A stretch of 64,000 nucleotides of DNA from a virus. Taxonomy: Duplodnaviria > Caudoviricetes. The DNA is taken from positions 5,344 through 69,343 of IMG/VR virus record IMGVR_UViG_3300000968_000002; one strand, 5' to 3'. Under the pieces are notes generated by a model. It saw only the letters and a program-made list of their open reading frames with translations. It did not search any database and was not told the DNA's origin. Shown here piece by piece: positions 6,956 to 43,672 of the stretch. Position numbers and translations under genes: made by a program. Within the stretch, counting starts at the first letter, position 1, and every line of letters begins with the position of its first letter.

Positions 6956-8218
6956 ATGAGCTATGACTTACAAAAACCCGTCTGGTTTCAAAACGACGGA
7001 GAAATCGATCCCCTTGTTGTGACGACAATGGGCGTGAATATAAAACCTAAAGACAGCTCAATCGGACATTTTGGGACGGGTCTGAAATTTGCGATCGCTA
7101 CAATCTTGAGAGCGGGCGGACGTATAGAGATTTTTTCCGGGCTTAAGCCTATCAATATCAGAACAGAGGATGTTGAGATCAGAGGAGAGCCATTTTCTCT
7201 CGTTGTCGTGAATGAGCAAGCGACGGGCTACACGACGAAACTAGGCCGCAATTGGCAAATGTGGATGGCCTATCGAGAGATTCACAGTAACGGTTTAGAT
7301 GAGCCAAACTTTCAAGTTTCTCATAGCGAAAGCCCGGCGCCAGAGTCAGGTAAGACTTTGATAAAGGTTTATTCTGATGAATTTCAGTCAGAGTATTACA
7401 AGCGAGGCAGAACTTTCCTTTCTAGCGACCCGATTACCTCCACACGGTCTGTTGAAATACATTCTGGTGGAGGAAAAGAGATTTATTATCGCGGTGTAAT
7501 TGTTGGTGTTTTGGAGACACCTTCTCTCCATACGTTCAACTTTTTACAGTCTATTGAGCTCACCGAGGATAGAACGATAAAAAATATCGGGGTCGCTCGA
7601 GGTATTGCTGAGGACGCGATCTCGAGGAATATCGACAATCAAGATATTATCGAAAAAACCATTACGGCTCCAAAAGAAAATTGGGAGCACGGATTCATTT
7701 ACACAGAAATTTTTAACAGCTCGGAGTTTACCTCCTGTCTTCGCTCTCTTTTAGAGAGACCCGATATCGACAAAAACGAGCTCGGGTATAGCGTCAAGGG
7801 TCATGTTGATAGAATACAAAGGTCACTTATAGGTGAGGCTCACGAGATAGAGCTCAATTCTGAAAATCAGGCAGATTTGGATTTTGCCATTCAAACTATT
7901 CGAGATATGGGACTCCCACTTAAAGAGTTTCCGATTGTACCAGTTGAGACCCTCGGTCGAGGCGTGATGGGGCAAGCTAAAGACGGGAAGGCTTTTCTCG
8001 CCCGGGGCGCGTTCCAAAACGGCAGGAAGTATCTGACAGTTACACTTCTCGAGGAGTGGCTTCACTTAACAACGGGATTCACAGATTATTCTCGAGCGTT
8101 TCAGGATTGGTGCATTAACGAGCTGGTTTCCCTTCATGGTCGAAAAAACGACATTGAGATTTTAACTGCGCCTCCAGCCACTATTGAGACACCCACTGAC
8201 GAGGAAATCCCCTTTTAG
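6956..8218 (+). CDS. GHKL (HSP90/MORC-like) ATPase with acidic IPF tail
   Basis: NDGEI, MGVNIK..IGHFGTGLKFA GHKL motifs; C-terminal LEEWLH and DEEIPF. Confidence 0.65.
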   Translation: MSYDLQKPVWFQNDGEIDPLVVTTMGVNIKPKDSSIGHFGTGLKFAIATILRAGGRIEIFSGLKPINIRTEDVEIRGEPFSLVVVNEQATGYTTKLGRNWQMWMAYREIHSNGLDEPNFQVSHSESPAPESGKTLIKVYSDEFQSEYYKRGRTFLSSDPITSTRSVEIHSGGGKEIYYRGVIVGVLETPSLHTFNFLQSIELTEDRTIKNIGVARGIAEDAISRNIDNQDIIEKTITAPKENWEHGFIYTEIFNSSEFTSCLRSLLERPDIDKNELGYSVKGHVDRIQRSLIGEAHEIELNSENQADLDFAIQTIRDMGLPLKEFPIVPVETLGRGVMGQAKDGKAFLARGAFQNGRKYLTVTLLEEWLHLTTGFTDYSRAFQDWCINELVSLHGRKNDIEILTAPPATIETPTDEEIPF

Positions 8219-16243: not shown

Positions 16244-16909
16244 CTATCGAGGCACGATCGGAGACGTGACCTCATACTCCTCGCCATCATACCAGTTCAG
16301 GTCTGCGCATCCCGATCGCACAAGCCACTGATTGAGGTTGTTTCCATTTTTCCAAATGATAACCAAAGGCCTGCCAAACTTCCCGGAAGCGTCACCGATC
16401 GTTTGAACGATAACCCTCGGGCCTCCGTCCTCAACCCACTTGATCGGCGCGTCCGGGACAACATTTAAGCCATCCGGGCGCAACAGATTGTGATATTTGA
16501 CCCTTCGAGGGTAGTGGCTCGGGTTTCCTCCAAGCCATCCGATCATAAGGTCTCGGCACTCGAATCCGGTTTTAACATGTGTCGAGCCTATCGATCGCCC
16601 GCGAAATCTTTTCGATCGAGACTTCTTGATCTCAAACGCATTCGTCCCGGCAAGCCTGACGTTTAGGTCGCGCCGCCAAAAATCAAACCCTACATCGAGA
16701 TCGATATTTAGCGTGTCGGAATCGTAAACCTCTTTGACGATCGCGGTGTAGGTGTATTGAGGAGCCTCGATCGACTCCGGGTCTCCCGGGAGCACGTCTT
16801 GATATCCTGCCCACGGAATAGGTGCTGTGCTTTGAGCTTGAGCCGCAGGAGTGAGATTGAAAGCCAAAAGGCTTAAAATCAGCAGTAAAGTGACCTTGAT
16901 ATTTTTCAT
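16244..16909 (-). CDS. Thermonuclease (SNase)-like protein with Sec signal peptide
   Basis: VYDSDT, VRLAGTNAFE, GKFGRPL, NLNQWLVRSG; N-terminal MKNIK-hydrophobic-AQA. Confidence 0.8.
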   Translation of the reverse strand: MKNIKVTLLLILSLLAFNLTPAAQAQSTAPIPWAGYQDVLPGDPESIEAPQYTYTAIVKEVYDSDTLNIDLDVGFDFWRRDLNVRLAGTNAFEIKKSRSKRFRGRSIGSTHVKTGFECRDLMIGWLGGNPSHYPRRVKYHNLLRPDGLNVVPDAPIKWVEDGGPRVIVQTIGDASGKFGRPLVIIWKNGNNLNQWLVRSGCADLNWYDGEEYEVTSPIVPR

Positions 16910-17367
16910 GACGGTTTCTCCTCGTCAGCGGTTTCGCAAACCTTGCCTGCATTCAAGCGCTCAAGGCAAGCCAAAGCATCGACGCGCTCGATAGCGCTTT
17001 TCTCTCGTTCCTTTTCCCGGGCGTCCTCAACTTTATTGATCTCATTAACGAGATCGGTGAACGCAATATCGAGGTTTTCAAAGTCAGCGAGACAAAGGTC
17101 TGCGATCTGACCGCTAGCGTTGTGCGTTCCCTTGCTGCGGATATCCCGCGAGGACAGGCTTAAGAGGTTGCTCGGAGGCCGGTTTTTGAATGGTTCCTTG
17201 ATTTTCTCTGACGACTTTGTTGCACTCGGAAGGTCGACGGCTACATATTTTGTCGAGACGGTCTGCGAGTTGTGACCGCACGCCGTCAGGAGCGATAGCG
17301 AGGCCAGATAGATCGCCAGCCGCAGCAGCAGCGTCTTGAGCCTCTTTAAGCTGTTTAGAGAGTTCAT
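16906..17367 (-). CDS. o-spanin (Rz1-like lipoprotein)
   Basis: Lipoprotein signal with lipobox LLTAC; overlaps 3' end of the i-spanin candidate. Confidence 0.7.
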   Translation of the reverse strand: MNSLNSLKRLKTLLLRLAIYLASLSLLTACGHNSQTVSTKYVAVDLPSATKSSEKIKEPFKNRPPSNLLSLSSRDIRSKGTHNASGQIADLCLADFENLDIAFTDLVNEINKVEDAREKEREKSAIERVDALACLERLNAGKVCETADEEKPS

Positions 17368-17674
17368 CGTTTTCTTTCCTTCTGGCATAGCTCGCAGCTT
17401 CCGCTCGCTTTGCTCTTTGAGTTGCTTGGGCCTCACGCTCTTGCGCGCGAGCTATTGCGGCTGCATCTAAACGCTCGGCTTTGACGTCGAGATCGAATGC
17501 GGTCTTGAGCGCCTTGATTTCGGCCTGCGCCTCTTTTTCAATCCGGGAGTTTTCTTTCTCAAGCCAGTCTGTGTTTTTGTCTCCCGAGCCCTTCACATAG
17601 CCAACAGTGACAAGCGCTCCCATAAGGAGCGCCTGTGCAATGCCGAGACCGGCGATAGCTTTCATCGAGAGCAC
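17114..17674 (-). CDS. i-spanin (Rz-like)
   Basis: Single N-terminal TM helix then Ala/Glu/Lys-rich coiled coil. Confidence 0.7.
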   Translation of the reverse strand: MLSMKAIAGLGIAQALLMGALVTVGYVKGSGDKNTDWLEKENSRIEKEAQAEIKALKTAFDLDVKAERLDAAAIARAQEREAQATQRAKRAEAASYARRKENDELSKQLKEAQDAAAAAGDLSGLAIAPDGVRSQLADRLDKICSRRPSECNKVVRENQGTIQKPASEQPLKPVLAGYPQQGNAQR

Positions 17675-17675
17675 G

Positions 17676-17828
17676 CTATCTCAATTCTGTTTGCGTGCTG
17701 TCTGTGTTTCCGCCGCTGCCGGCACCTGAGCCAGATTCCCGAGAGGGAGAGCTCTTGCGAGCCTTAAGCTTGGTGTAGATAAAATATCCAGCGCCCGCGA
17801 GAACGATGAGTAAAACGATGTATTCCAT
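17676..17828 (-). CDS. Small single-TM membrane protein (50 aa)
   Basis: AAGGAG RBS, MEYIVLLIVLAGAGYFIYTKLK then Gly/Ser tail. Confidence 0.7.
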   Translation of the reverse strand: MEYIVLLIVLAGAGYFIYTKLKARKSSPSRESGSGAGSGGNTDSTQTELR

Positions 17829-17862
17829 TGGTGTGCTCCTTGAAGGTTGAGCCCTACCCCTA

Positions 17863-18609
17863 TCACACAAGTTTAGGTTTGTCTGCACTGACGATTCTGA
17901 TCCAAAGATCGCCCCGGTCTGCGATAGGTGCAAACTTCTTATAAAACGGCTTATAAGTCTTTCTCGACTCAGAAAGAACAACAGACTTATGACGCCATCC
18001 GCCAACGAGCGGACAGCCGAGCGTGTCTTTCGGCCAGTTTCCCGGATGCAACTGAATATAAGTATAGCCCGGAACGTCGATAAGCTCGAGGATGCCATAT
18101 CGATGCCAGTCTCCATCATCAAGATATCGCAGACGCTCTCGCTCGGCTCGACCTCGATCGTGACGCACACCAATTTTATACAAGCCCGCACTGATTGCGG
18201 TTTTCCCATAGACTTTAACTGCCTCTGGATTATCGCGATCGCACATCTCGACAATTTCATCGAAGTTAGAGTGATCGTCTTTAAGGTCAGGCAGGCGGCT
18301 TACGTCCTCGCAAACCCAACAGACATGACGCCCTTGATCGTCAACAAGCTCACCGATCTGACCATATTCAGTTTCCATTGCCCCACGATAGAGGGTCAGT
18401 CCGGGCTTGGGTTTTTCCGGTGCTCTCGGGATCGGAGCCACCGGGGCAGCTTTTTCGACGTCATTTTGCGGAAATTTCCCACCGTGAGGCGTTTTTTCGA
18501 CTTTTTCCGTGTTATCGGGGCCGGGCTTTTGCTCCTGCCTCTTAGAGGAGCTCTCATGCGCCTTCGCTATTATCGCGAAAAGTGTGGCTAAATTTCCCCA
18601 CCCTTGCAC
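17863..18609 (-). CDS. DUF5675-family endolysin candidate (L,D-transpeptidase-like)
   Basis: TAISAGLY, VPGYTYIQLHPGNWPKDTLGCPLVG; position in lysis cassette; start uncertain (GTG 18609). Confidence 0.7.
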   Translation of the reverse strand: MQGWGNLATLFAIIAKAHESSSKRQEQKPGPDNTEKVEKTPHGGKFPQNDVEKAAPVAPIPRAPEKPKPGLTLYRGAMETEYGQIGELVDDQGRHVCWVCEDVSRLPDLKDDHSNFDEIVEMCDRDNPEAVKVYGKTAISAGLYKIGVRHDRGRAERERLRYLDDGDWHRYGILELIDVPGYTYIQLHPGNWPKDTLGCPLVGGWRHKSVVLSESRKTYKPFYKKFAPIADRGDLWIRIVSADKPKLV

Positions 18610-18611
18610 AA

Positions 18612-19253
18612 TTACACCAATGGGGGATTGTCGGTGAAGACGTCCCACACCGAGGCAAGGCTATGAAACTCTGCAAACTGATCAATATCTCCATCCTGAT
18701 CTTTATCAAAAGGGCTCGACTGACCGACAAGAACCCCGAGAGGAACTCTGTCGTTTAGAGCGATAATAGGACCGCCAGACATGCCCGGGACGACTGGCTG
18801 GTATAAAAGGCCGGCAGGCGTGTCGAAAGACGGGACCGGAGACGGCAGCTCATCGATTTCAACAATCCAAGTCGGGGTGCTATATTCAGCATCACCCGCA
18901 ATCTCTTTTCTGTGCCAGTAAATCGTGCCAACTCGCGCAACCACCTCAACCGTCCCATTCGGAATGCCAAAGATCACAACGGGCTCACCCTCGATCGGCT
19001 CCCGAGGTCGCTCAATTTGAGAAAGCCCTGATCCATAAACCGCAACGTCGATTAAACCCGGGGCAACTTTTGGATTTTCCGAGATGAAGGGCGGAACCGT
19101 TCCCTCCTGCATATCGAGAACGTGCTTTGCGGAAAACCATGTGTCCGGGATGCCTTCCCAGCGCCAATAAGAGCCTGGCGCTTGTGAATTTTTGCCTTCG
19201 TGAAAATAAGGGCGCACATTTACTTTTGCATCACGCGGGGAAAAAATTGTCAT
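18612..19253 (-). CDS. Trypsin-like serine protease
   Basis: Triad motifs SAKHV, IDVAV, PGMSGGP; DKDQDGD near C-terminus. Confidence 0.8.
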   Translation of the reverse strand: MTIFSPRDAKVNVRPYFHEGKNSQAPGSYWRWEGIPDTWFSAKHVLDMQEGTVPPFISENPKVAPGLIDVAVYGSGLSQIERPREPIEGEPVVIFGIPNGTVEVVARVGTIYWHRKEIAGDAEYSTPTWIVEIDELPSPVPSFDTPAGLLYQPVVPGMSGGPIIALNDRVPLGVLVGQSSPFDKDQDGDIDQFAEFHSLASVWDVFTDNPPLV

Positions 19254-19262
19254 TTGAAAATC

Positions 19263-19643
19263 CTATTCAGCTTCTGATGCAAAAATGCAAAAATGAGGCC
19301 TTTTTTGCCCCGGCCACCTCAATAGCTTAATTTCAAGATTGAGGTTCACAACGCTCCCCTCCCCACAAATGAACTCACATTGAGTTAACCCATTAAATTT
19401 CCCACTTTCAATATCATCAGCCACCCAATCAATCCGGTCTGTATGGATATGATCCTGACTTGCAGTGATTATCGGAGCGATATTTGTTCCGGTTAATGTA
19501 GAGGCTGCTCGCTTAAGCAGCTCACAAAACCCCTGTGATATGTACCCGATTTTGTTGTCTGAATTTATATGAACAAGCGCCACGTCGCTTGATGCCAGTG
19601 TGGCGCTAGCAATTGCCATTTTTATCAAAAGATTTTCATCCAT
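19263..19643 (-). CDS. Stand-alone PAS domain protein
   Basis: VALVHINSDNKIGYISQGFCELL..LTGTNIAPII..EFICGEGSVVNLNLEIK PAS pattern. Confidence 0.75.
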   Translation of the reverse strand: MDENLLIKMAIASATLASSDVALVHINSDNKIGYISQGFCELLKRAASTLTGTNIAPIITASQDHIHTDRIDWVADDIESGKFNGLTQCEFICGEGSVVNLNLEIKLLRWPGQKRPHFCIFASEAE

Positions 19644-19647
19644 CGGA

Positions 19648-20061
19648 TTAGTCCTGATTTGTTGTCCCCACGGCTACGGTCCCACCGAGAGCCTCGAGCA
19701 GCGCTTTATGGCGTGCATTTTCTTCTGTAAGCTTTAAAATAGCATCGCGCATTTTGACCATTTCCTCCTCTAGGGCTTTCTGCCTTGCAGCAAAAGCCTG
19801 AGTTAGGTCTATACGTACTTTTTCCCGATCAGCAACCACGCGAGCAGTTTCTTGACGAGCAGGGACAACCATGCCCCGATAAGTGAATGCGACCGATGCA
19901 ATAACGGCTGCGACTGCTAAAAGAGCAACACCTCCCGGACCGCTTAGGACTGTAGAGAAGTCTCCAAGCTTACCGGAGTTTTGCAAAATCAGTGTCAGAA
20001 TAGCCATTCCGGTTACGCCGCCGCCAACAAGTAAGCTGCCGTTTCCTGAATTTTCGCTCAT
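19648..20061 (-). CDS. Holin candidate (2 TM plus C-terminal coiled coil)
   Basis: Two hydrophobic segments; first gene of the lysis cassette. Confidence 0.55.
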   Translation of the reverse strand: MSENSGNGSLLVGGGVTGMAILTLILQNSGKLGDFSTVLSGPGGVALLAVAAVIASVAFTYRGMVVPARQETARVVADREKVRIDLTQAFAARQKALEEEMVKMRDAILKLTEENARHKALLEALGGTVAVGTTNQD

Positions 20062-20131: not shown

Positions 20132-20156
20132 AAAAAACGCGCCATATGTAGGCGCG
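20132..20156 (-). terminator. Rho-independent terminator after tail operon
   Basis: CGCGCC-N7-GGCGCG followed by T6 on minus strand. Confidence 0.75.
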
Positions 20157-20181: not shown

Positions 20182-20502
20182 TTAGATGTCTCCAGTCTTC
20201 TCGTCCACTAAGGGTGTGCCGTTTTTCTCAGCAAGCCTTTGCTTCGCTGCGTCTAAGGCCGGGCCAAGGCGAAAATTCATTATTTGGCGCAGCTCTTTAA
20301 GTTCCTTAAGAAGGGGAGCTGACGGGCTTTTGATGTTCTCGATTGCATAATCAAGATCCACAATAGCAGGAGCGGCCTTCGTCATCACGGACTCTGTGAC
20401 CTCGATCATATCCTCAAGGAGAGCGGTCTCCATTTCATCTTGCTTCTTTTGAGCATCCTCAGCGAGAGCGTCTATTTTTTTTTGAAAATCTGACTTTGAC
20501 AT
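20182..20502 (-). CDS. Hypothetical helical protein (tail region)
   Basis: Co-oriented ORF after the tail fibre chaperone. Confidence 0.55.
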   Translation of the reverse strand: MSKSDFQKKIDALAEDAQKKQDEMETALLEDMIEVTESVMTKAAPAIVDLDYAIENIKSPSAPLLKELKELRQIMNFRLGPALDAAKQRLAEKNGTPLVDEKTGDI

Positions 20503-20512
20503 ATTGCTTTCC

Positions 20513-20827
20513 TTATTTTGGCACCTCGGGGAATATCACGTCTTTTGGTTTCTCACAAGATTCCGTTATGTCTCGAAGTTTGTTTCGATAACTATCACAC
20601 ACCACGAGCTCTTTTTTAGTCTTGCGAGCCCTCCATGATACATTGTCCATATAATCTGTTTGAGCGAGCAGTATATTTCTTTGAGCCCTAACCTCAGCCC
20701 ATCCAGCCTCATGTCTCTTTGATTTTTTTTGAGCCGCAACTATCCGGCAGTGATCGCACCTCTTCTTTTTATCAAAGACAAATGAAGGCCTATCTCTGCC
20801 GCATTTACATCTAACCGTTTTCATGTT
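20513..20827 (-). CDS. Tail fibre assembly chaperone with N-terminal CxC/CxxC
   Basis: WAEVRAQRNILLAQTDY..YRNKLRDIT..VIFPEVP. Confidence 0.75.
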   Translation of the reverse strand, partial: NMKTVRCKCGRDRPSFVFDKKKRCDHCRIVAAQKKSKRHEAGWAEVRAQRNILLAQTDYMDNVSWRARKTKKELVVCDSYRNKLRDITESCEKPKDVIFPEVPK

Positions 20828-20832
20828 GAGCC

Positions 20833-23800
20833 TTAACTGTTTTGAGGCAAAATCGTGACCGTGCAAGTTTGCCCACTTGGAGTAGCGCTTGATGTTCCTG
20901 ATTGCGCTGTATTCGAGTACGATGTTCTGAAAAAACTAATACTCTGTATATTGGTGTTATTAGGCCCAATAGAAACACCAAATTCTTGATCTGATGTTTG
21001 CCCTATCGGCCCACCAAAAGTTTTTAAGAAGGTATGCGAAACCTCTATAACAGGATTGTTTTGCGTCGTCGTTACTGAGTCGAACCAAGCTGATGACCCT
21101 ATCGATGTCCAAATTCCTGACGATGCAGGCCGGACAAAGAACTCAAGATGACCTTGTGATGACGCGGTTTCTGGCTCTGATGGCGTGCCGTTTCCGATAT
21201 ACTGGGCTTGGAAGGTTACATCAAAAGCATAACTCCCATTCGTAGCATCCAGAGCTGAAGGTTTGTGAACAACTTCATCTGGCTCAGCGCCTACACCCGG
21301 CGTTGAATTTCCTGTTATATGATTTGATGTAGAGCCGGGAGTCGTCACTTTAGCTCGCAACGTTGCCCCTGTGCTGGATAAATTTATTAACCCGACATCA
21401 TATATCTGACCAGCTCCCAAGGGAGCCAATCCTGTGGTGTCTATCGTGAAAGCGGGTATATTAAACAAATCACTGCCGAAATTAAAACTTTCTCCATCAG
21501 AAAGCCCCGACACCTGAAAGCTTTGCAGTGCAACCGGAACCCTTCTTGTTCCAACAAGAACAGCACCTAAGGCCGCTATGTCTCCATAAAATGTTGCGTT
21601 TGTTCCAACAACATCCATCGCTCTTTGATAAACGCCGTCAACTGCATTATAGAGCGCAATCTGATCTGCGCCGAAGGCCACTGTAGATGCCGCCACACCA
21701 CCGGGTGTTAAATCGGCCTGCGCGACGATGAATGCTTCCGCGCCGGGAACCGCTGGCTCAACAGACCAATGGGCCTGCAGACGTCCTGTATTTTCCGCGA
21801 TAGTAGCGGAATTTACTGTGACACTGGCCTCTAACGAACTAACTCTGCCTGAGGCAATCTCAGCAGGCGTGGCCCGGCGTAAGCCAAACTTGTGCCATGT
21901 GATATTATTCTCAATGTTGAAGCTTCCCGCGTGGCCGTTCCAATGCGATTGTATGAAAAAACGAATCCTATCGAGGAGCCCGTGATTGAAATGGAAAAGA
22001 TCGCCATATTCATACGTTCTCCCAACAACTCCCTGCCCCTCAAGACTTCCTGAGCTTGAGGGCGTGTTCGGAAAGCTCATTACATTTTGCAAGCCAAGGA
22101 ATTGACCAGCAGCGCTAAATCCTTGCGCATACAATCCGCCACCATTTAAGGTCCCGGAGTTCAATGTGATCTGACACTCCATTACGAACCAGCCGGAGCT
22201 CAACCCGTCTAAGTCAACTCTAATTCCTGTGCTTTGACCAGCCACGCCAGTAAGGTTCATAGCATTGTCTGAAACCTGTCCGTCGACACGCGTGGCGCCT
22301 GTCGCGTTTATCCAGTTGGTATATCCGGGTGGAATTCCGCCTGTATAAACAACGAGGTTTGAGTTTGGATTTAGATGATTGGATGATAAAGCCGCTGTCT
22401 GCTCTAAAATTGTCTGAGCTGAAACAGCGTCCGCATTCGCCGCAGCCGCGCTCGCGCTTGCGTTTGAGGCGTGTCCTGCAGCAGCCGTTACTTGTAGGCC
22501 GACAGCGAGTTGAGCTGCCGATGCCGCACCAGCAGAAACCGCAGCCGCATCGCGGAAAACTAAAGCATCGCCTCTGGCGTTCTCCGCATCCACTCTAAAG
22601 CCATCAGCGGCTTGAGCATGTCCATCAGCAGCATCCCTAAAAACTAATGCTTGAGAAGCCGAGGCCACAGATGCAGCAGCGTTTAATTCAGAGGTTTTCG
22701 CCTGCGTTGAGTTTACGATTTCTAAGCGGTAAATCTCGAAAGTCCCGCCCGTTAGATTGTTGTGGTTTGGCAAATAAGCTCCACGAACAAATCGCCGTCC
22801 TAAATCCCAATCAGCCTGTGTAACCGTATATTCTCTCGTGTCCTGAACCGCATCCGTGCCGTTGAATAAGGTCAGATCAATTATATCAGCCCCGATAGTT
22901 TGATGGTTTCCATCTACAAAATTAAATCCTAGCCGGGACCTCGCTGTGGCCAGACCTGTTTTTTCGGCCATAAGTGCGGAAACCGTGAACGTATCGCCGA
23001 CAGATATCGGGAGTGCCTCTTTGTGCAAAACCCAGTCTCGTATGTCGCCCGTTCTAATCGCCCACCCATCTGATGTGCTAACCAAAGTATGAGCAGGAGC
23101 TTGAATAACCCCGCGCGACGTATCTGGAGATGAGTTAAAGTTGTCTGTAAAATAGTCATTCGCAAACTGAAATGTGGACGGGAGCCTAGTCCTGATCTGA
23201 TTTATTGTGTCATTTTGAGCTGCTATAGCGGCAATCGATGCAGTTTGAGACACCTCTGCAAAACCATCAGCGTCATCCGCGAAATCTGATGCTGATGTAG
23301 CAGCATTTGTCGCCACAGTTCGCGCGTTCTCGGCTGCTGTCTGAGCCGCTTGAGCGATACCAGCGCTTGCAGCGCTCGAGGCTGTATTGCCAAAAACGAC
23401 TAAGAGCTCTGCAACCCCGGCTGTATTTGTCGCGAGCGCGCTAGCGCTCAATGCATCTAAATCTTGGAGCGTTTGCGGCCTTCCCTGTGTTCTCTCCCAT
23501 AGGGGTTGAGCGAGATCATCCTCAGTAACGATAATGGCTACCGGAGTAGACTTTGTGTCCATATATGACGTGCGGACAAAATACTCTCCAGCCTCTGTAA
23601 TTACTTGCTCTCGACGGCTCGACGTTCCAATCAACTGAGCCGCTTGGATGTCCCCAACAGAGCCTCTATAAATTTCATAGACATAAGGACGAAAATCTGC
23701 CGGAGCATACCAAGAAAGCCAGGTTTGTAATGCTTCGTTATCAGCATTCACTTCGAGGTTTAATATTGGCGGCAAGGTTTGAGTTCCTGCGTCAACATTA

Positions 23801-26562
23801 AACTCTTTTACCGTCCATCCTCCCACTAAGCCGAGAGAGCCGATAGGGCGAACTCTAACTCGCATAGTTCCGCTTGGGACAGGGATTAAATCTCGGCTTA
23901 GTTCCTCACTTCCATCTAAAGGGGTAAACCCTGTATCTGAAAAAGAATATTCCACATCATATCTGAGAGCTCGAGCATCATTTATGGCAGACCAGCTTAT
24001 CAAAACACTAGGCACACTGCTGTCGCCGTCAATTTGCTGATATTCCAATATCGTAATGTTTTCAGGGTCAACTAAAGGCAATGGGCCTGAGGGTAAATTG
24101 CTCGTTGAAAGAGGTAAGACATTTGCCCCATTTTCAACGCGCGGCCAGCTTGTTTCATCATATCGTCTAAGCCTTAATCGCCGCCCGCCTTTTATATCGG
24201 TGACCTGTATAACTCTAAACTCTTGAAGTGCGACCTGATCTGTCTCGAGAGCCCACGGCGCATTAGGGTTAGGCGAAACGTCAAACGCGCTAGCAAGCTC
24301 AAGGGTGGCTGTAACTCCGGCGCTTGATGTCACAACTCGACTGGCTAAAACACCATCTGGCTGATGGGCGTGGATCGTATAGGTCCTTCCTGCCTCAATC
24401 GTGACGTTTCTATCGAGCGTAACAGTTGAGCCAGACACGGAGGCAATTCTCCCCCCCATACTGTTGACAGTTTTCCTTGGGTCATGAATTTTAGCCACGA
24501 CTCCCGGGTGAATATGGCTGACCTGCCGTCCTGCTTCAATTGTAGCGGACTCTCCAAGGAAGTTTTGCTCCTCCATTAACCACAGACCCAAACGATTAGC
24601 CTCACCGGCTGTTGCCGCTCCGGCCGCAGTAACACTATTCGGCTCAAATCCTATTTTTCTTACAAGGGAGGGGTCCCGAATTGTCTCCGGTTTTGGCTCA
24701 TAAAAATCATCGATATCGTTCCACCAAACAGTGACAGCACTAAATTGCCTGTCTGTCGACGCAGAGTCGTAAACAATACCTCGCTCACTGATGTTTGCCG
24801 GGACAAGCAAGATTTTATCAGCCTCGAGAACGGGCCTCTCTTGAAATAAAGAAAGACCACTTGAGCCCCAAAATGCGTGCGATCTAAATGTCGTCGCCAT
24901 TTGACGAATTAAAGTTAAGGCCTGAACACGATTGCTAATCTCCATCGAGATCGTATGCCTGAATTCAGTTCCGCCCCTTCCGTCAGGAACAAGCTGGCTG
25001 TTATAGATGGAGGCCGCATAAAAATCCCAAACCGAAACGCGTCCACCAAGAAAAGAGCCTGCTCCGAAAAAGTCGTTTGTGACAACATCGTGCAAAGCCC
25101 ACGCTGGATCATTGCAGAAAGCCTCCTTGAAAGTAACGCCATCCCAAACTCCTGAATATGTGCGCGCGACAGGGTCAAAGTTTACAGGGACAGGCATGAC
25201 GCGACCGCGCCACCTTAGCGTAATTCTTGGGTCTCCACTTCCGAGAAGCTTGGCATTAATAGAAATCCCTACATAAGCGATTCCTGGCCAATAGAATTTC
25301 TGATCAATCGTCTCTGTGACGAAATCGAGAAAAGTCTCATTTTGTAATGTCGAAGAATTACTATCGGGCGTAAGGCGCGTGACGCGAATATCCCAAGGAG
25401 CCCCGCCCTCAGGAAGCGGGATGCGATATCCACGCTGATATTTTGAGCTATTTTTACCGCTAAAACGAGCCGGGTTCACAACTGACGCGTACCCACCTCC
25501 ATTCGATTGTAGTTCAATACTGAGGTTTACGGTCGTTCGCTCGAGGGCGTTGTCTTCTGTGTCTAATTGGCTGAGCTGCGGAATACCAATCACTACATTT
25601 GCCGAGTCCACAAGGTCGTCTGTAATCGTGTAAACGATAGAACCGGAGGTGGCCGTCACCTCTCGCCCATCGACAACGCTAGCGCTTGATGACTCAAAGC
25701 CCGGAATGTGGTCTTGATCTTCATCACCTGTACGAATTTCAATCGCAAAGCCGGTAATGTTTTCCACTCCGTTTGCGTCAACAACGGGTGTGTCATTTAC
25801 ATAAACGTCTTGAAGTCCATTAACGAGGCCTACCTGCTTTCCAACTCCAACAAGGCCTAAGATTTTAGCAATTGCATTTGATACAAGCGTGTCAGGATCT
25901 TCTCTAAACGAGCCACCGCCGCCGCCGCCGCCTTTACCGCCGCCTTTTTCGTATTCAGGCGCAGCCCATCCAGACGTCCATAAAACATTTCTGAATATAT
26001 TTGAACCGCCCTGATTTGAGGAGTCTCCACCCCATGAGTGAGATGTTGTGTCTGAGATTTCGACCTGACTAGATACAACGTGAATACTGGTAAAGACGTC
26101 ACCGTAAATCAGGGATAAGGGATGCCCCTCAGATACTCTTTGCTGAGGTCGATCAATGATGCCGGACGAGACACCTTCTCTCTCAAGGTCGTTAGAGTCC
26201 AGTCCTGCGGGCAGTGGTGCGAAAAGTGCCGCCCCAACAAAGGCACCAATAATGCCAATTCCAGCGACAAGTAAGATTGTCTCTACGCCAGACTGTAACC
26301 CCTCGGGGATAATATGAACCGTGTCACAATCCCCAAGTGGAAACTTCAAGGTCTCAGGCGCTACAGACTTCCGCTCAACACCTTTCCCTTTGGTTTTCCA
26401 TATTTTCCAGCTTCCATTGAGGGTAACGGATCGAGTTTCCGGGAACATGGCCCATAGAGCCGCAAAAATATCTCTTGGAGTATTGACGCCTAAAGAGATT
26501 TCACTCTCACCGACGATCTCTGCTATGCGTCCATAAAGCCTGATTTTACGAAGTGCTGTCAT
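20833..26562 (-). CDS. Tail tip protein: lambda gpI-like N-terminus fused to gpJ central fibre
   Basis: KIRLYG..V.TPR...AL (gpI-like), GGGKGGG linker, conserved J core (EAFCNDPAW, WNDIDDFYEP), FN3-like and Ala-rich distal regions. Confidence 0.9.
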   Translation of the reverse strand: MTALRKIRLYGRIAEIVGESEISLGVNTPRDIFAALWAMFPETRSVTLNGSWKIWKTKGKGVERKSVAPETLKFPLGDCDTVHIIPEGLQSGVETILLVAGIGIIGAFVGAALFAPLPAGLDSNDLEREGVSSGIIDRPQQRVSEGHPLSLIYGDVFTSIHVVSSQVEISDTTSHSWGGDSSNQGGSNIFRNVLWTSGWAAPEYEKGGGKGGGGGGGSFREDPDTLVSNAIAKILGLVGVGKQVGLVNGLQDVYVNDTPVVDANGVENITGFAIEIRTGDEDQDHIPGFESSSASVVDGREVTATSGSIVYTITDDLVDSANVVIGIPQLSQLDTEDNALERTTVNLSIELQSNGGGYASVVNPARFSGKNSSKYQRGYRIPLPEGGAPWDIRVTRLTPDSNSSTLQNETFLDFVTETIDQKFYWPGIAYVGISINAKLLGSGDPRITLRWRGRVMPVPVNFDPVARTYSGVWDGVTFKEAFCNDPAWALHDVVTNDFFGAGSFLGGRVSVWDFYAASIYNSQLVPDGRGGTEFRHTISMEISNRVQALTLIRQMATTFRSHAFWGSSGLSLFQERPVLEADKILLVPANISERGIVYDSASTDRQFSAVTVWWNDIDDFYEPKPETIRDPSLVRKIGFEPNSVTAAGAATAGEANRLGLWLMEEQNFLGESATIEAGRQVSHIHPGVVAKIHDPRKTVNSMGGRIASVSGSTVTLDRNVTIEAGRTYTIHAHQPDGVLASRVVTSSAGVTATLELASAFDVSPNPNAPWALETDQVALQEFRVIQVTDIKGGRRLRLRRYDETSWPRVENGANVLPLSTSNLPSGPLPLVDPENITILEYQQIDGDSSVPSVLISWSAINDARALRYDVEYSFSDTGFTPLDGSEELSRDLIPVPSGTMRVRVRPIGSLGLVGGWTVKEFNVDAGTQTLPPILNLEVNADNEALQTWLSWYAPADFRPYVYEIYRGSVGDIQAAQLIGTSSRREQVITEAGEYFVRTSYMDTKSTPVAIIVTEDDLAQPLWERTQGRPQTLQDLDALSASALATNTAGVAELLVVFGNTASSAASAGIAQAAQTAAENARTVATNAATSASDFADDADGFAEVSQTASIAAIAAQNDTINQIRTRLPSTFQFANDYFTDNFNSSPDTSRGVIQAPAHTLVSTSDGWAIRTGDIRDWVLHKEALPISVGDTFTVSALMAEKTGLATARSRLGFNFVDGNHQTIGADIIDLTLFNGTDAVQDTREYTVTQADWDLGRRFVRGAYLPNHNNLTGGTFEIYRLEIVNSTQAKTSELNAAASVASASQALVFRDAADGHAQAADGFRVDAENARGDALVFRDAAAVSAGAASAAQLAVGLQVTAAAGHASNASASAAAANADAVSAQTILEQTAALSSNHLNPNSNLVVYTGGIPPGYTNWINATGATRVDGQVSDNAMNLTGVAGQSTGIRVDLDGLSSGWFVMECQITLNSGTLNGGGLYAQGFSAAGQFLGLQNVMSFPNTPSSSGSLEGQGVVGRTYEYGDLFHFNHGLLDRIRFFIQSHWNGHAGSFNIENNITWHKFGLRRATPAEIASGRVSSLEASVTVNSATIAENTGRLQAHWSVEPAVPGAEAFIVAQADLTPGGVAASTVAFGADQIALYNAVDGVYQRAMDVVGTNATFYGDIAALGAVLVGTRRVPVALQSFQVSGLSDGESFNFGSDLFNIPAFTIDTTGLAPLGAGQIYDVGLINLSSTGATLRAKVTTPGSTSNHITGNSTPGVGAEPDEVVHKPSALDATNGSYAFDVTFQAQYIGNGTPSEPETASSQGHLEFFVRPASSGIWTSIGSSAWFDSVTTTQNNPVIEVSHTFLKTFGGPIGQTSDQEFGVSIGPNNTNIQSISFFRTSYSNTAQSGTSSATPSGQTCTVTILPQNS

Positions 26563-42932: not shown

Positions 42933-43427
42933 ATGTCCTCACTCAATAAGGTAATGCTGATTGGTAATCTTGGGAACGATCCCGAGGTCAGATCCTTTGG
43001 TAATGGCGGAAAGGTTGCGAACTTCTCTCTCGCGACGTCCGAAAAATGGAAAGACAAGAACACCGGAGACCGCAAGGAAAAGACCGAGTGGCACCGCGTT
43101 GCTGTCTTTGGAGAGGGGCTCGTCAATGTTGTCGAGCGCTACGTTAAGAAGGGCTCAAAGCTCTATATCGAAGGCAAGCTGCAAACCCGGAAGTGGCAAG
43201 ACCGCGACGGGAACGACAAATACACCACGGAGATCGTCTTGCAAGGGCCAGGCTGTAAACTCACGATGCTAGGCAGCAAAGATGACAACAACGGAGGTGG
43301 TGGCCGGGATTACGGTAGCGGTGGACGATCTGGTGGCGGTGGCTACGGAGGCGGAAGCTCCTCGGGCTCGTCTAACTCAAACGATCGAGGCAGAGACTTT
43401 GATCTCGATGACGAGATACCGTTTTAA
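42933..43427 (+). CDS. ssb: Single-stranded DNA-binding protein
   Basis: [38 protein letters not shown] tail. Confidence 0.97.
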
Positions 43428-43672
43428 TGGTCGACGTGACGTCCATCACGCTCCCGGGGCTTGGCTTGGCGCTCTGCTCCGGGATTTCTTTCGGGATTTC
43501 TCTCGTTGCAGGCGTCCGGTTTTATAGGCTTTATGGACACTTAGAGCCTGACGAGGTTGAGGACGAGTTTTTCGAGAATATACCCGTGAAAGACCTTCAT
43601 CTTTTTGAGATATCGATGGTAGCTCTCGCCTTTGGCATCATCTTTATTCTTCTCGCGATATTCACCCAATAA
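43427..43672 (+). CDS. Two-TM membrane protein
   Basis: Two hydrophobic segments around an acidic loop. Confidence 0.6.
   Translation: MVDVTSITLPGLGLALCSGISFGISLVAGVRFYRLYGHLEPDEVEDEFFENIPVKDLHLFEISMVALAFGIIFILLAIFTQ

What the first reader, a model, noticed from the sequence alone, without database searches (positions are those of the whole stretch)
16244..20061. Lysis cassette with an embedded PAS sensor and serine protease: possible signal-regulated lysis system
Seen: one tightly packed minus-strand unit after a terminator: holin candidate (19648-20061), stand-alone PAS protein (19263-19643), trypsin-like protease with intact H/D/S triad, no signal peptide and a DxDxDG Ca-binding-like motif (18612-19253), DUF5675 enzyme, small TM protein, i-spanin, o-spanin and exported nuclease. 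Known: canonical cassettes are holin, endolysin and spanins; PAS domains sense ligands, redox, oxygen or light and regulate partners by direct contact. Inference: PAS senses host state and gates the holin (via its coiled-coil tail) or the protease, which then activates the holin or endolysin. I know of no characterised lysis module built this way, but could not check novelty.
Basis: partly seen in the sequence, partly recalled or inferred. Interest (0 to 1): 0.9.

Follow-up and report, generated by a model that had tools for sequence, protein, structure and literature searches.

The report
Phage lysis operon with PAS partner
An uncultured phage's cell-bursting operon begins with a holin-like membrane protein that is always paired with a small PAS (sensor-type) protein, often followed by a trypsin-like protease, which suggests an undescribed, still untested way of controlling when the host bursts.

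Summary
Window 16244-20061 (minus strand) is a tightly packed lysis operon of a 69-kb, about 97% complete uncultured phage. It follows a terminator-like hairpin.

Gene order:
- a 2-TM protein with a coiled-coil tail
- a stand-alone PAS protein
- an S1-like serine protease
- a DUF5675 endolysin candidate with an N-terminal extension
- a 50-aa TM protein
- i- and o-spanin
- an exported nuclease

What the checks showed:
- **PAS:** the fold is confirmed (AF2 pLDDT 89; PDB matches are all PAS/LOV/FixL).
- **Protease:** the His/Asp/Ser triad is conserved and the ESM Atlas places it with S1 peptidases.
- **Invariant core:** the 2-TM/coiled-coil plus PAS pair is adjacent in every readable relative, 7 including the window.
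- **Optional part:** the protease is clearly present in 4 of these 7 contexts.
- **Endolysin link:** a bacterial protein fuses the protease domain to DUF5675. Sister phages swap DUF5675 for a T4-type lysozyme but keep the rest.

My reading is a holin (or holin-associated anchor) with a cytoplasmic PAS regulator, plus a protease tied to the endolysin. Sensing, binding and cleavage are all inferred. No cofactor signature was found, and the complex prediction gave no verdict.

Earlier notes of this scan describe similar modules on other DNA. I confirmed one: a fused TM-coiled-coil-PAS protein, a 2-TM protein and a putative peptidase, kept in 22 of 24 IMG/VR loci.

I class it as a new variant of a known kind.

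The parts
20138..20156 (-). Terminator-like hairpin (CGCGCC, 7-nt loop, GGCGCG, then T run) separating the upstream tail-fibre-assembly/106-aa genes from the lysis operon
   Evidence: pattern scan; sequence
19648..20061 (-). 137-aa membrane protein: two Gly/Ala-rich TM segments, then a cytoplasmic, charged coiled-coil tail of about 70 aa. Holin candidate (class II-like topology) or membrane anchor for the PAS protein.
   Evidence: Hydropathy peaks at residues 8-26 and 43-61. No Pfam or PHROG holin family hit. Homologues at 68%, 62-65% and 32% identity, always directly upstream of a PAS gene.
19263..19643 (-). 126-aa stand-alone PAS-fold protein with no output domain, TM segment or signal peptide
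   Evidence: AF2 pLDDT 89.3. Foldseek PDB hits are all PAS/LOV/FixL/DOS. Pfam PAS is below the cut-off for this copy and above it for relatives P0005, P0008 and P0010. The exhaustive HMMER search found only 5 small relative clusters.
18612..19253 (-). 213-aa S1/chymotrypsin-like serine protease with no signal peptide; H44, D69, S159 (GMSGG); DxDxDG-like loop at 183-191
   Evidence: Triad conserved in every homologue that covers those positions. ESM Atlas features 0.97 and structure TM 0.72 to S1 peptidases. Fused to DUF5675 in bacterial protein P0003. 44% identical homologue at the same position in L004.
17863..18609 (-). DUF5675 (YkuD/C82-like) endolysin candidate. It has an N-terminal extension of about 75 aa (from GTG 18609): a short hydrophobic or amphipathic helix, then a Pro/Lys/Glu-rich linker. 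The alternative start GTG 18648 would give a SAR-like 20-residue hydrophobic segment.
   Evidence: PF18925 at 51.1 bits. Sequence and starts. Hydropathy. Sister phages carry a T4-type lysozyme with an analogous N-terminal helix plus linker at this position. DUF5675 is read as C82-like lysin domain in bioRxiv 10.64898/2026.04.11.717860.
17676..17828 (-). 50-aa single-TM protein, a possible second holin, antiholin or pinholin-like factor; absent from sister cassettes L004 and L010
   Evidence: its absence in L004 seen
17114..17674 (-). i-spanin: N-terminal TM segment plus a coiled-coil periplasmic domain
   Evidence: PF10721 DUF2514 at 26.6 bits (cut-off 26) and phrog_312 Rz-like spanin; TM peak
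16906..17436 (-). o-spanin lipoprotein (lipobox L-T-A-C) that overlaps the 3' end of the i-spanin gene; the real start is probably the internal ATG near 17367
   Evidence: Sequence reading; weak phrog_456 Rz-like spanin hit
16244..16909 (-). Exported SNase-like endonuclease with a Sec-type signal peptide; last gene of the operon
   Evidence: phrog_452 endonuclease at 3.7e-12; signal-like N-terminus; conserved at the same position in L004 and L010

Best explanation
This is the late lysis operon of a tailed phage, probably of an alphaproteobacterial host, with a canonical back end and an unusual front end.

Back end: an endolysin (here DUF5675, YkuD/C82-like), a two-component spanin and an exported nuclease.

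Front end, as I read it:
- The 137-aa 2-TM protein sits in the inner membrane, N-in and C-in. Either it is the holin, with the same layout as mycobacteriophage D29 gp11 (two TMDs plus a long C-terminal coiled coil), or it is a holin-associated anchor.
- The translationally coupled PAS protein is its cytoplasmic partner. It probably docks on the coiled-coil tail and modulates when the membrane protein triggers. That would make it a soluble antiholin or co-holin, analogous to P1 LydB or T4 RIII.
- The S1-like protease is an optional add-on, functionally coupled to the endolysin. It either removes the endolysin's N-terminal helix-linker extension or acts as a second envelope or peptidoglycan peptidase after the membrane is breached.
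- Its DxDxDG loop suggests, speculatively, that low cytoplasmic Ca2+ keeps it inactive until then.

Shown: gene content, folds, catalytic residues, conserved adjacency, and the protease-DUF5675 fusion.
Inferred: holin activity, PAS-tail binding, any ligand sensing, the protease substrate and Ca2+ control.
For: Operon identity:
- Spanins, nuclease, DUF5675 and the position after the tail-fibre genes and a terminator.
- Sister phages L004/L005 and L010/L011 keep the same order but carry a Phage_lysozyme endolysin where DUF5675 sits here. This marks that slot as the endolysin slot.
- A synteny-inferred L,D-transpeptidase-like endolysin in a Mu-like Vibrio phage is reported in PMC9239132. DUF5675 is classed as a C82-like lysin domain in the preprint read.

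Holin-like protein:
- It has 2 TMDs and a charged coiled-coil tail.
- It is the first gene of the operon.
- In L004 it is the only non-spanin membrane protein seen in the cassette, although that lysozyme has no TM segment.
- D29 gp11 is a precedent for 2 TMDs plus a coiled-coil tail (PMC9671378).

Pairing with PAS:
- Adjacent and nearly abutting, from 8 nt of overlap to 6 nt of spacer (up to 33 nt in L008 by the gene call), in the window, L004/5, L010/11, L012, L006/7 and L008.
- In L009 a 2-TM/coiled-coil protein with no detectable sequence similarity plays the same part, just after the spanins.
- A holin plus soluble antiholin operon unlinked to the endolysin has a precedent in P1 lydA-lydB (PMC9025707).

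PAS fold.

Protease and endolysin coupling:
- P0003 is a protease domain (43% identity over all 213 aa) fused to DUF5675.
- The endolysins of this lineage all carry an N-terminal helix plus a disordered linker, whatever their catalytic domain.

Analogous fused architecture elsewhere: a 199-aa 1-TM/coiled-coil/PAS-like protein, then a 73-aa 2-TM protein, then a 305-aa protein, kept in 22 of 24 IMG/VR loci.
Against: - There is no match to any holin family. The ESM Atlas gives only unnamed viral clusters at lead-level scores.
- In L008 the pair lies beside a DNA primase and a methyltransferase. On the P0008 contig it ends against a helicase, with no lysis gene adjacent.
- The window has another small TM protein inside the cassette (17676-17828) and an 81-aa 2-TM ORF at 43427-43672 that could be the real holin.
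- In the analogous fused modules the TM-CC-PAS protein sits next to a separate 2-TM holin-like protein. This favours 'anchor or regulator' over 'holin' for the TM-CC part.
- No LOV cysteine motif and no Fα histidine is evident in the PAS alignment. The PAS fold may therefore serve only as a protein-interaction module.
- The protease also occurs outside lysis contexts: in L003 among early, HNH and IS605 genes, apparently without a canonical start, and in L002 as a lone chromosomal gene.
- Four of the seven contexts come from one phage lineage (TM-CC 62-70% identical), so the number of independent observations is small.
Confidence: 0.5

Rival explanations
1. The 2-TM/coiled-coil protein plus PAS is a split form of a membrane-tethered PAS regulator and not a holin. 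It controls a separate holin, for example the 50-aa TM protein at 17676-17828 or a gene elsewhere, or it controls release of the N-extended endolysin, somewhat like the Mu gp25 releasin.
For: - In an unrelated phage group TM, coiled coil and PAS are fused in one 199-aa protein that is followed by a separate 73-aa 2-TM holin-like protein.
- The window has its own extra small TM protein.
- Mu gp25 is a membrane-tethered cytoplasmic protein required for endolysin release (PMC9239132).
- If translation starts at GTG 18648, the window's endolysin N-terminus is SAR-like (KD 1.71 over 19 residues).
Against: - L004 shows no other membrane protein in the cassette, and its lysozyme N-terminus is too short and acidic to span a membrane.
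- There is no sequence similarity between the fused proteins and the window's proteins.
- GTG 18609 is the more likely start, judged by position and by comparison with relatives.
Confidence: 0.25
2. The TM-CC/PAS pair is an autonomous two-gene accessory module unrelated to lysis, for example superinfection exclusion, membrane or energy sensing for host takeover, or a moron. In this lineage it merely sits between the tail and lysis genes.
For: - In L008 the pair forms its own small plus-strand unit between minus-strand genes, next to a primase and a methyltransferase.
- On the P0008 contig it ends against a convergent helicase.
- There is no holin family hit.
Against: - It lies next to an endolysin and/or spanins in the window, L004/5, L010/11, L012 and L009, including one case with a different gene order (spanins first) and a non-homologous TM-CC.
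- It heads the operon after a terminator and is tightly coupled to the downstream lysis genes.
- There are no PADLOC defence hits.
- Holin/antiholin pairs unlinked to the endolysin are known, as in P1, so L008 does not contradict a lysis role.
Confidence: 0.15
3. This rival concerns the protease only. It is a second lytic enzyme rather than a regulator or processing enzyme: a peptidase that attacks peptidoglycan peptides or envelope tethers once it is released to the periplasm, working alongside DUF5675 as in two-domain lysins.
For: - The direct protease-DUF5675 fusion has no linker (P0003), like the two-catalytic-domain lysins I recall from background knowledge.
- In L012 the protease reading frame appears to be preceded by an N-terminal TM segment, and L006 carries a similar N-terminus. 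That would fit an envelope location.
- The DxDxDG loop would fit activation by periplasmic Ca2+ (inference).
- Bacteriolytic chymotrypsin-fold enzymes exist, such as Lysobacter alpha-lytic protease (my own knowledge, not tested here).
Against: - As far as I know, no S1-type catalytic domain is established in phage endolysins.
- The protease is dispensable in L008 and L009.
- The L012 frames are broken, so the TM anchor is uncertain.
Confidence: 0.3

Closest known systems
Phage P1 LydA (holin) / LydB (soluble antiholin) operon
   Same: A small membrane protein is followed by a co-transcribed soluble protein without a TMD that antagonises it. The pair can be encoded away from the endolysin (PMC9025707), as seen for the TM-CC/PAS pair in L008.
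   Different: There is no sequence relationship. LydB belongs to PF16084 and gives no hhalign match to the PAS family. LydA is a Phage_holin_3_3 member, whereas the window protein matches no holin family. LydB is not known to be a PAS protein.
Mycobacteriophage D29 gp11 holin
   Same: Two N-terminal TMDs, N-in/C-in, and a long C-terminal coiled-coil region important for oligomerisation and timing (as summarised in PMC9671378). This is the same layout as the 137-aa protein.
   Different: The host is Gram-positive-like, no PAS partner or protease is described, and no sequence similarity was tested or seen.
Phage T4 lysis inhibition (holin T with antiholins RI and RIII)
   Same: This is the concept of a cytoplasmic (RIII) or periplasmic (RI) protein that binds a holin domain to delay triggering in response to a signal. 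The comparison rests on my own knowledge.
   Different: The protein families, topology (T has one TMD and a large periplasmic domain) and signal (superinfection) are all different.
Phage Mu gp25 releasin with SAR endolysin gp22
   Same: A membrane-tethered protein with a cytoplasmic domain sits in the lysis region and acts on the endolysin's N-terminal segment. A protease model was discussed for it (PMC9239132).
   Different: gp25 is DUF2730 with one TMD and has no PAS partner. The window's endolysin is SAR-like only under the less likely start codon.
Vibriophage VP882 VqmA_Phage
   Same: A phage-encoded PAS-domain protein that links a small-molecule signal to the decision to lyse (PMC8284805, listed).
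   Different: VqmA_Phage is a PAS plus DNA-binding transcription factor that acts on the lysis-lysogeny switch. The protein here is a bare PAS domain inside the lysis operon with no DNA-binding domain.
Fused TM-coiled-coil-PAS / 2-TM / putative peptidase modules of uncultured phages
   Same: The set of parts is the same: membrane anchor, coiled coil, PAS, small 2-TM protein and a putative protease. They are tightly packed next to tail genes and kept in 22 of 24 IMG/VR loci.
   Different: There PAS is fused to the anchor. The third gene is read in the notes as a papain-like peptidase (Pfam gave no hit here). No recognisable endolysin was reported. There is no detectable homology to the window's proteins.

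Membership tests
PAS fold superfamily (Pfam PAS clan) | Five-stranded antiparallel beta-sheet flanked by helices (PAS core) | tested here: met
   The AF2 model has pLDDT 89.3 and the element order H-E-E-H-H-H-E-E-E. 479 PDB matches have E<=0.001; the top ones are all PAS/LOV/FixL/DOS at TM 0.65-0.76.
PAS fold superfamily (Pfam PAS clan) | Score at or above the Pfam PF00989 gathering threshold (22.6 bits) | tested here: inconclusive
   The window copy scores 19.9 bits, below the threshold. Family members P0005 (32.2), P0008 (39.3) and P0010 (25.4) pass it.
Cofactor-binding PAS sensors (LOV flavin, FixL/DOS haem) | LOV cysteine in the NCRFLQ-type motif, or an axial His on the F-alpha helix | tested here: not met
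   Read from alignments A1 and A4. There is no NCRFLQ-like motif, and the F-alpha helix (residues 72-80) has no His. A partly conserved DHxH lies in the low-confidence loop before it. Other ligands are not excluded.
Chymotrypsin-fold serine peptidases (clan PA, Pfam Trypsin_2) | His, Asp and Ser triad in that order, with a GxSGG-type motif around the Ser | tested here: met
   H44, D69 and S159 in GMSGG are conserved in all homologues that cover those positions.
Chymotrypsin-fold serine peptidases (clan PA, Pfam Trypsin_2) | Family-level sequence score and double beta-barrel fold | tested here: inconclusive
   Trypsin_2 scores 14.3 bits against a cut-off of 27.6. My AF2 model was poor (pLDDT 47.9). 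The ESM Atlas's own model aligns with S1 peptidase clusters at TM 0.64-0.72, with feature score 0.97.
Holins | Small size, at least one TMD, a charged cytoplasmic C-terminus, and a position in the lysis cassette | tested here: met
   137 aa, two hydrophobic segments, a charged tail, and first gene of the operon.
Holins | Membership of a described holin family (Pfam or PHROG) | tested here: not met
   No holin family appeared in Pfam, PHROGs or NCBIfam.
Holins | Forms lethal membrane lesions that release or activate the endolysin at a set time | not testable with these tools
   This needs expression and lysis assays.
DUF5675 (PF18925), proposed C82/YkuD-like lysin domain | Pfam score above the gathering threshold; conserved His...Gly-Cys motif | tested here: met
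   51.1 bits against 26.7. H-P-G-N-W-P-K-D-T-L-G-C in the window aligns with H-V-G-N-Y-H-H-D-T-D-G-C in P0003. Muralytic activity was not tested. The structural link to C82 comes from the preprint read.
P1 LydB antiholin family (PF16084) | Sequence homology to LydB | tested here: not met
   hhalign probability 0.8%. LydB matches PF16084 only.
Two-component spanins (Rz/Rz1 type, overlapped) | [quoted passage not shown] | tested here: met
   DUF2514 at 26.6 bits (cut-off 26) and phrog_312. The TM peak is at residues 6-24. The lipobox is LLTAC, and the o-spanin ORF 16906-17436 overlaps the i-spanin gene 17114-17674.
SAR endolysins | An N-terminal weakly hydrophobic, Gly/Ala-rich TMD preceded by basic residues | tested here: inconclusive
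   The feature is present only if translation starts at GTG 18648 (PIGVIVQGWGNLATLFAIIA, KD 1.71). From the likelier GTG 18609 only about 13 hydrophobic residues remain. Relatives have short acidic amphipathic N-termini.

The most novel reading that the evidence does not exclude
The PAS protein is a true ligand, redox or oxygen sensor that acts as a soluble antiholin on the coiled-coil tail. It would tie the moment of lysis to the host's metabolic state. The S1 protease would be a Ca2+-switched enzyme that trims the endolysin's N-terminal tether once the membrane is breached. Together with the fused TM-CC-PAS / 2-TM / peptidase modules of other uncultured phages, this would define a widespread, undescribed class of sensor-and-protease-controlled phage lysis.
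Probability: 0.15. Interest if true: 0.85.

Novelty: new variant of a known kind. Interest (0 to 1): 0.62.

Why it matters
Lysis timing sets phage fitness. The known regulators (lambda S107, T4 RI/RIII, P1 LydB, Mu releasin) are few and idiosyncratic. I found no paper describing a PAS-fold protein as the obligate neighbour of a holin-like protein.

If it binds a ligand, it would be the first direct small-molecule or redox input into the lysis clock, and a natural parts kit for tunable lysis circuits.

The protease-DUF5675 fusion also gives a lead on two poorly understood lysin components: an L,D-transpeptidase-like endolysin and an S1-type peptidase. Both are relevant to hosts rich in L,D cross-links, and to lysin discovery.

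All of this is testable with a handful of clones.

Tried and rejected
- **Complex prediction:** PAS (A1) against the TM-CC tail, residues 60-137 (A3), returned 'no answer' with score 0.01. I do not use it either way.
- **BLAST against GenBank phages:** blastn of the region and tblastn of PAS and protease found no match.
- **IMG/VR scans:** the protease (A2) and TM-CC (A3) alignments found no relatives. The PAS alignment A1 was too divergent to scan.
- **GTDB genome scan with A2:** nothing.
- **Metagenome scan with the closer PAS alignment A6:** one 15-residue match inside an unrelated large bacterial gene, judged spurious.
- **AF2 of the protease on 4 sequences:** pLDDT 47.9, not used for fold search.
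- **PDB profile search with A2:** no peptidase; the best match (E 0.0012) is to a lentiviral Vif chain over 75 residues, read as chance.
- **PADLOC:** no defence family for any of six proteins.
- **hhalign comparisons:** the PAS family against P1 LydB, and the TM-CC and PAS families against the fused L020 protein and the L009 TM-CC, showed no significant similarity.
- **Head-maturation protease:** considered and rejected. I did not re-test that.
- **LOV or haem sensor:** considered and rejected for lack of the motifs.

Full report
**Where the window comes from.** The window is bases 5344-69343 of a 69,343-bp IMG/VR virus record estimated 97% complete. No similar DNA or protein exists among 50,697 GenBank phage records. 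Other first-reader notes on the same genome mention GcrA-like and GapR-like genes. That hints at an alphaproteobacterial host, but I did not test it.

**Anatomy.** The minus strand downstream of a 1909-aa tail fibre gene (20833-26562) carries the following, in order:

| Coordinates | Feature |
|---|---|
| 20513-20866 | tail-fibre-assembly gene (PF16778) |
| 20182-20502 | 106-aa gene |
| 20156-20138 | terminator-like hairpin |
| 19648-20061 | 137-aa membrane protein |
| 19263-19643 | 126-aa PAS protein |
| 18612-19253 | 213-aa protease |
| 17863-18609 (or 18648) | DUF5675 protein |
| 17676-17828 | 50-aa single-TM protein |
| 17114-17674 | i-spanin |
| 16906-17436 | o-spanin, overlapping the i-spanin gene |
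| 16244-16909 | exported nuclease |

Intergenic gaps in the operon run from 0 to 34 nt, or the genes overlap.

**The PAS protein.** Pfam PAS scores 19.9 bits for this copy, under the 22.6 cut-off.
- An exhaustive HMMER search of 1.84 billion representatives found only five small stand-alone relatives of 121-142 aa. Three of them pass the Pfam threshold.
- An AF2 model built on the six-sequence alignment is confident (pLDDT 89.3).
- Its PDB neighbours are exclusively PAS, LOV, FixL and DOS domains (TM 0.65-0.76). The fold is settled.
- I see no LOV cysteine motif and no histidine on the F-alpha helix. A partly conserved DHxH sits in the one low-confidence loop. Nothing can yet be said about a ligand.
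- BFVD holds other uncharacterised stand-alone PAS proteins of uncultured phages. Phage PAS proteins as such are therefore not new.

**The protease.** Family scores are weak (Trypsin_2 14.3 bits) and my AF2 model failed (pLDDT 47.9).
- H44, D69 and S159 (GMSGG) are conserved in every homologue that covers them.
- The ESM Atlas places the protein with S1/Trypsin_2 clusters, both by features (0.97) and by its own structure model (TM 0.72).
- It has no signal peptide or TM segment.
- The DxDxDG-like loop is present in the window, L004 and L012, is a DxNxNG variant in P0004, and is degenerate in P0003.

**Conservation of linkage.** I read every context available for PAS relatives and for relatives of the membrane protein.

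| Context | Arrangement |
|---|---|
| L004/L005 | 147-aa membrane protein (68% id), PAS, protease (44% id), T4-type lysozyme, i/o-spanin, nuclease |
| L010/L011 | same order, after a 1857-aa tail fibre and a 105-aa gene |
| L012 | membrane protein, PAS, a protease broken by frameshifts and apparently preceded by a TM segment, then the lysozyme N-terminus |
| L006/L007 | C-terminal fragment of the membrane protein, PAS, then a TM-containing N-terminus like that in L012 |
| L008 | membrane protein (32% id) and PAS alone, as a small plus-strand unit beside a DNA primase and a methyltransferase |
| L009 | i-spanin, o-spanin, a 120-aa 2-TM/coiled-coil protein with no detectable sequence similarity, PAS, then two unknowns |
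| P0008 contig (no DNA available) | a 115-aa gene, PAS, then a convergent helicase |

- The invariant unit is therefore the 2-TM/coiled-coil protein plus PAS.
- The protease is present in four of seven readable contexts, the window included.
- Lysis genes are adjacent in five of those seven.
- Four of the seven belong to one lineage, so the number of independent observations is modest.

**Protease and endolysin.** A 358-aa bacterial chromosomal protein, P0003, aligns with the whole protease at 43% identity. It continues directly into a DUF5675 domain (87.6 bits), which is 33% identical to the window's DUF5675 over 121 aligned residues. This fusion mirrors the gene order in the window and ties the protease to the endolysin, not to PAS.

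In the sister phages DUF5675 is replaced by a Phage_lysozyme domain. That marks the slot as the endolysin slot.
- All these endolysins, whatever their catalytic domain, start right after the protease stop codon.
- Each begins with a short hydrophobic or amphipathic helix followed by a 50-80-residue Pro/Glu/Gln/Lys-rich linker.
- Within the lysozyme group this extension is conserved in sequence, so it is translated.
- By analogy the window's gene most likely starts at GTG 18609.
- The longest-ORF start, GTG 18648, would create a SAR-like segment but overlaps the protease gene by 37 nt.
- DUF5675 has been read as a C82/YkuD-like lysin domain (preprint). A transpeptidase-like endolysin was inferred by synteny in a Mu-like phage (PMC9239132).

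**What the membrane protein is.** It matches no holin family. Its layout is two Gly/Ala-rich TMDs, a positively charged juxtamembrane stretch and a long helical tail. That is the layout described for the D29 gp11 holin (PMC9671378). In L004 it is the only non-spanin membrane protein seen in a cassette whose lysozyme has no export signal.

A holin plus a soluble antagonist, encoded as a pair that may lie away from the endolysin, is known from P1 lydA-lydB (PMC9025707). LydB itself is unrelated to the PAS family. A complex prediction for PAS and the tail gave no verdict.

**A lead from earlier notes, tested.** Notes from other windows of this scan describe TM-coiled-coil-PAS proteins beside holin-like proteins and papain-like proteases.
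- I back-translated the quoted motif and found 24 IMG/VR contigs.
- In L020 a 199-aa protein (one TM segment, a coiled coil and a PAS-like C-terminus with weak Pfam hits) is followed by a 73-aa 2-TM protein, a 305-aa protein and a tail fibre.
- This trio is kept in 22 of the 24 loci; the other two are cut short.
- There is no detectable homology to the window's proteins. Pfam did not confirm the peptidase here.
- The same set of parts thus recurs in fused form in an unrelated phage group. This supports the idea that the membrane/coiled-coil part and PAS work as one unit.
- It also shows that such a unit can coexist with a separate small 2-TM protein. That keeps the 'anchor or regulator, not holin' rival alive.

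**Verdict.**
There is a conserved PAS partner of a holin-like protein at the head of a real lysis operon, and a likely active S1 protease coupled to the endolysin.
- Sensing, gating and proteolytic activation remain inference, and the protease is not part of the conserved core.
- Literature searches found no description of such a module.
- I class it as a new variant of a known kind (a holin-endolysin-spanin cassette with new accessory proteins). It is of above-average interest because it is cheap to test and has an analogue in other phages.

Noticed in passing
L002:2993-4069 (bacterial contig, Logan ERR13847229): The protease-DUF5675 fusion P0003 is a lone gene in a chromosomal setting, just downstream of pspB/pspC (phage-shock operon) and a DUF2807 gene and upstream of an mnmC-like gene. 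It has no signal peptide. It may be a domesticated lysin or a prophage remnant.
   Followed up: partly
L003:7791-8432: A full-length protease homologue (40% identity over 212 aa by tblastn) lies among early-type genes (HNH endonuclease, IS605 OrfB copies). The first canonical start in frame is only at 8001. The gene may be interrupted or may use an unusual start.
   Followed up: partly
L012:1015-1602 and L006:469-657: In these relatives the gene after PAS begins with an acidic N-terminus and a clear TM segment. In L012 this runs, across two apparent frameshifts, into the protease domain. This may be a membrane-anchored version of the protease, or assembly errors.
   Followed up: partly
window 43427-43672 (+): An 81-aa ORF with two strongly hydrophobic segments lies outside the lysis operon. 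It is another possible holin-like or membrane accessory protein.
   Followed up: no
window 19263-19643 (-), residues 65-69 of the PAS protein: A DHxH motif in the only low-confidence loop of the PAS model is kept in most family members: the first His in 7 of 8 and the second in 6 of 8. It could be a metal or cofactor site.
   Followed up: no
window 16244-16909 (-): The exported SNase-like nuclease closes the lysis operon here and also in L004 and L010 (217-218 aa, phrog_452). It is a conserved 'lysis plus nuclease' arrangement.
   Followed up: partly
P0009 (916 aa) and P0011 (2776 aa), hits: Two long proteins match short stretches of the PAS protein many times (9 and 14 stretches). They are probably multi-PAS or repeat proteins. 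I did not examine them.
   Followed up: no
L015-L038 (IMG/VR contigs): A conserved trio is present in 22 of 24 contigs, often next to tail-fibre genes: a fused 1-TM/coiled-coil/PAS-like protein of about 199 aa, a 2-TM protein of about 73 aa, and a protein of about 305 aa. Pfam gives no family for the 305-aa protein.
   Followed up: partly
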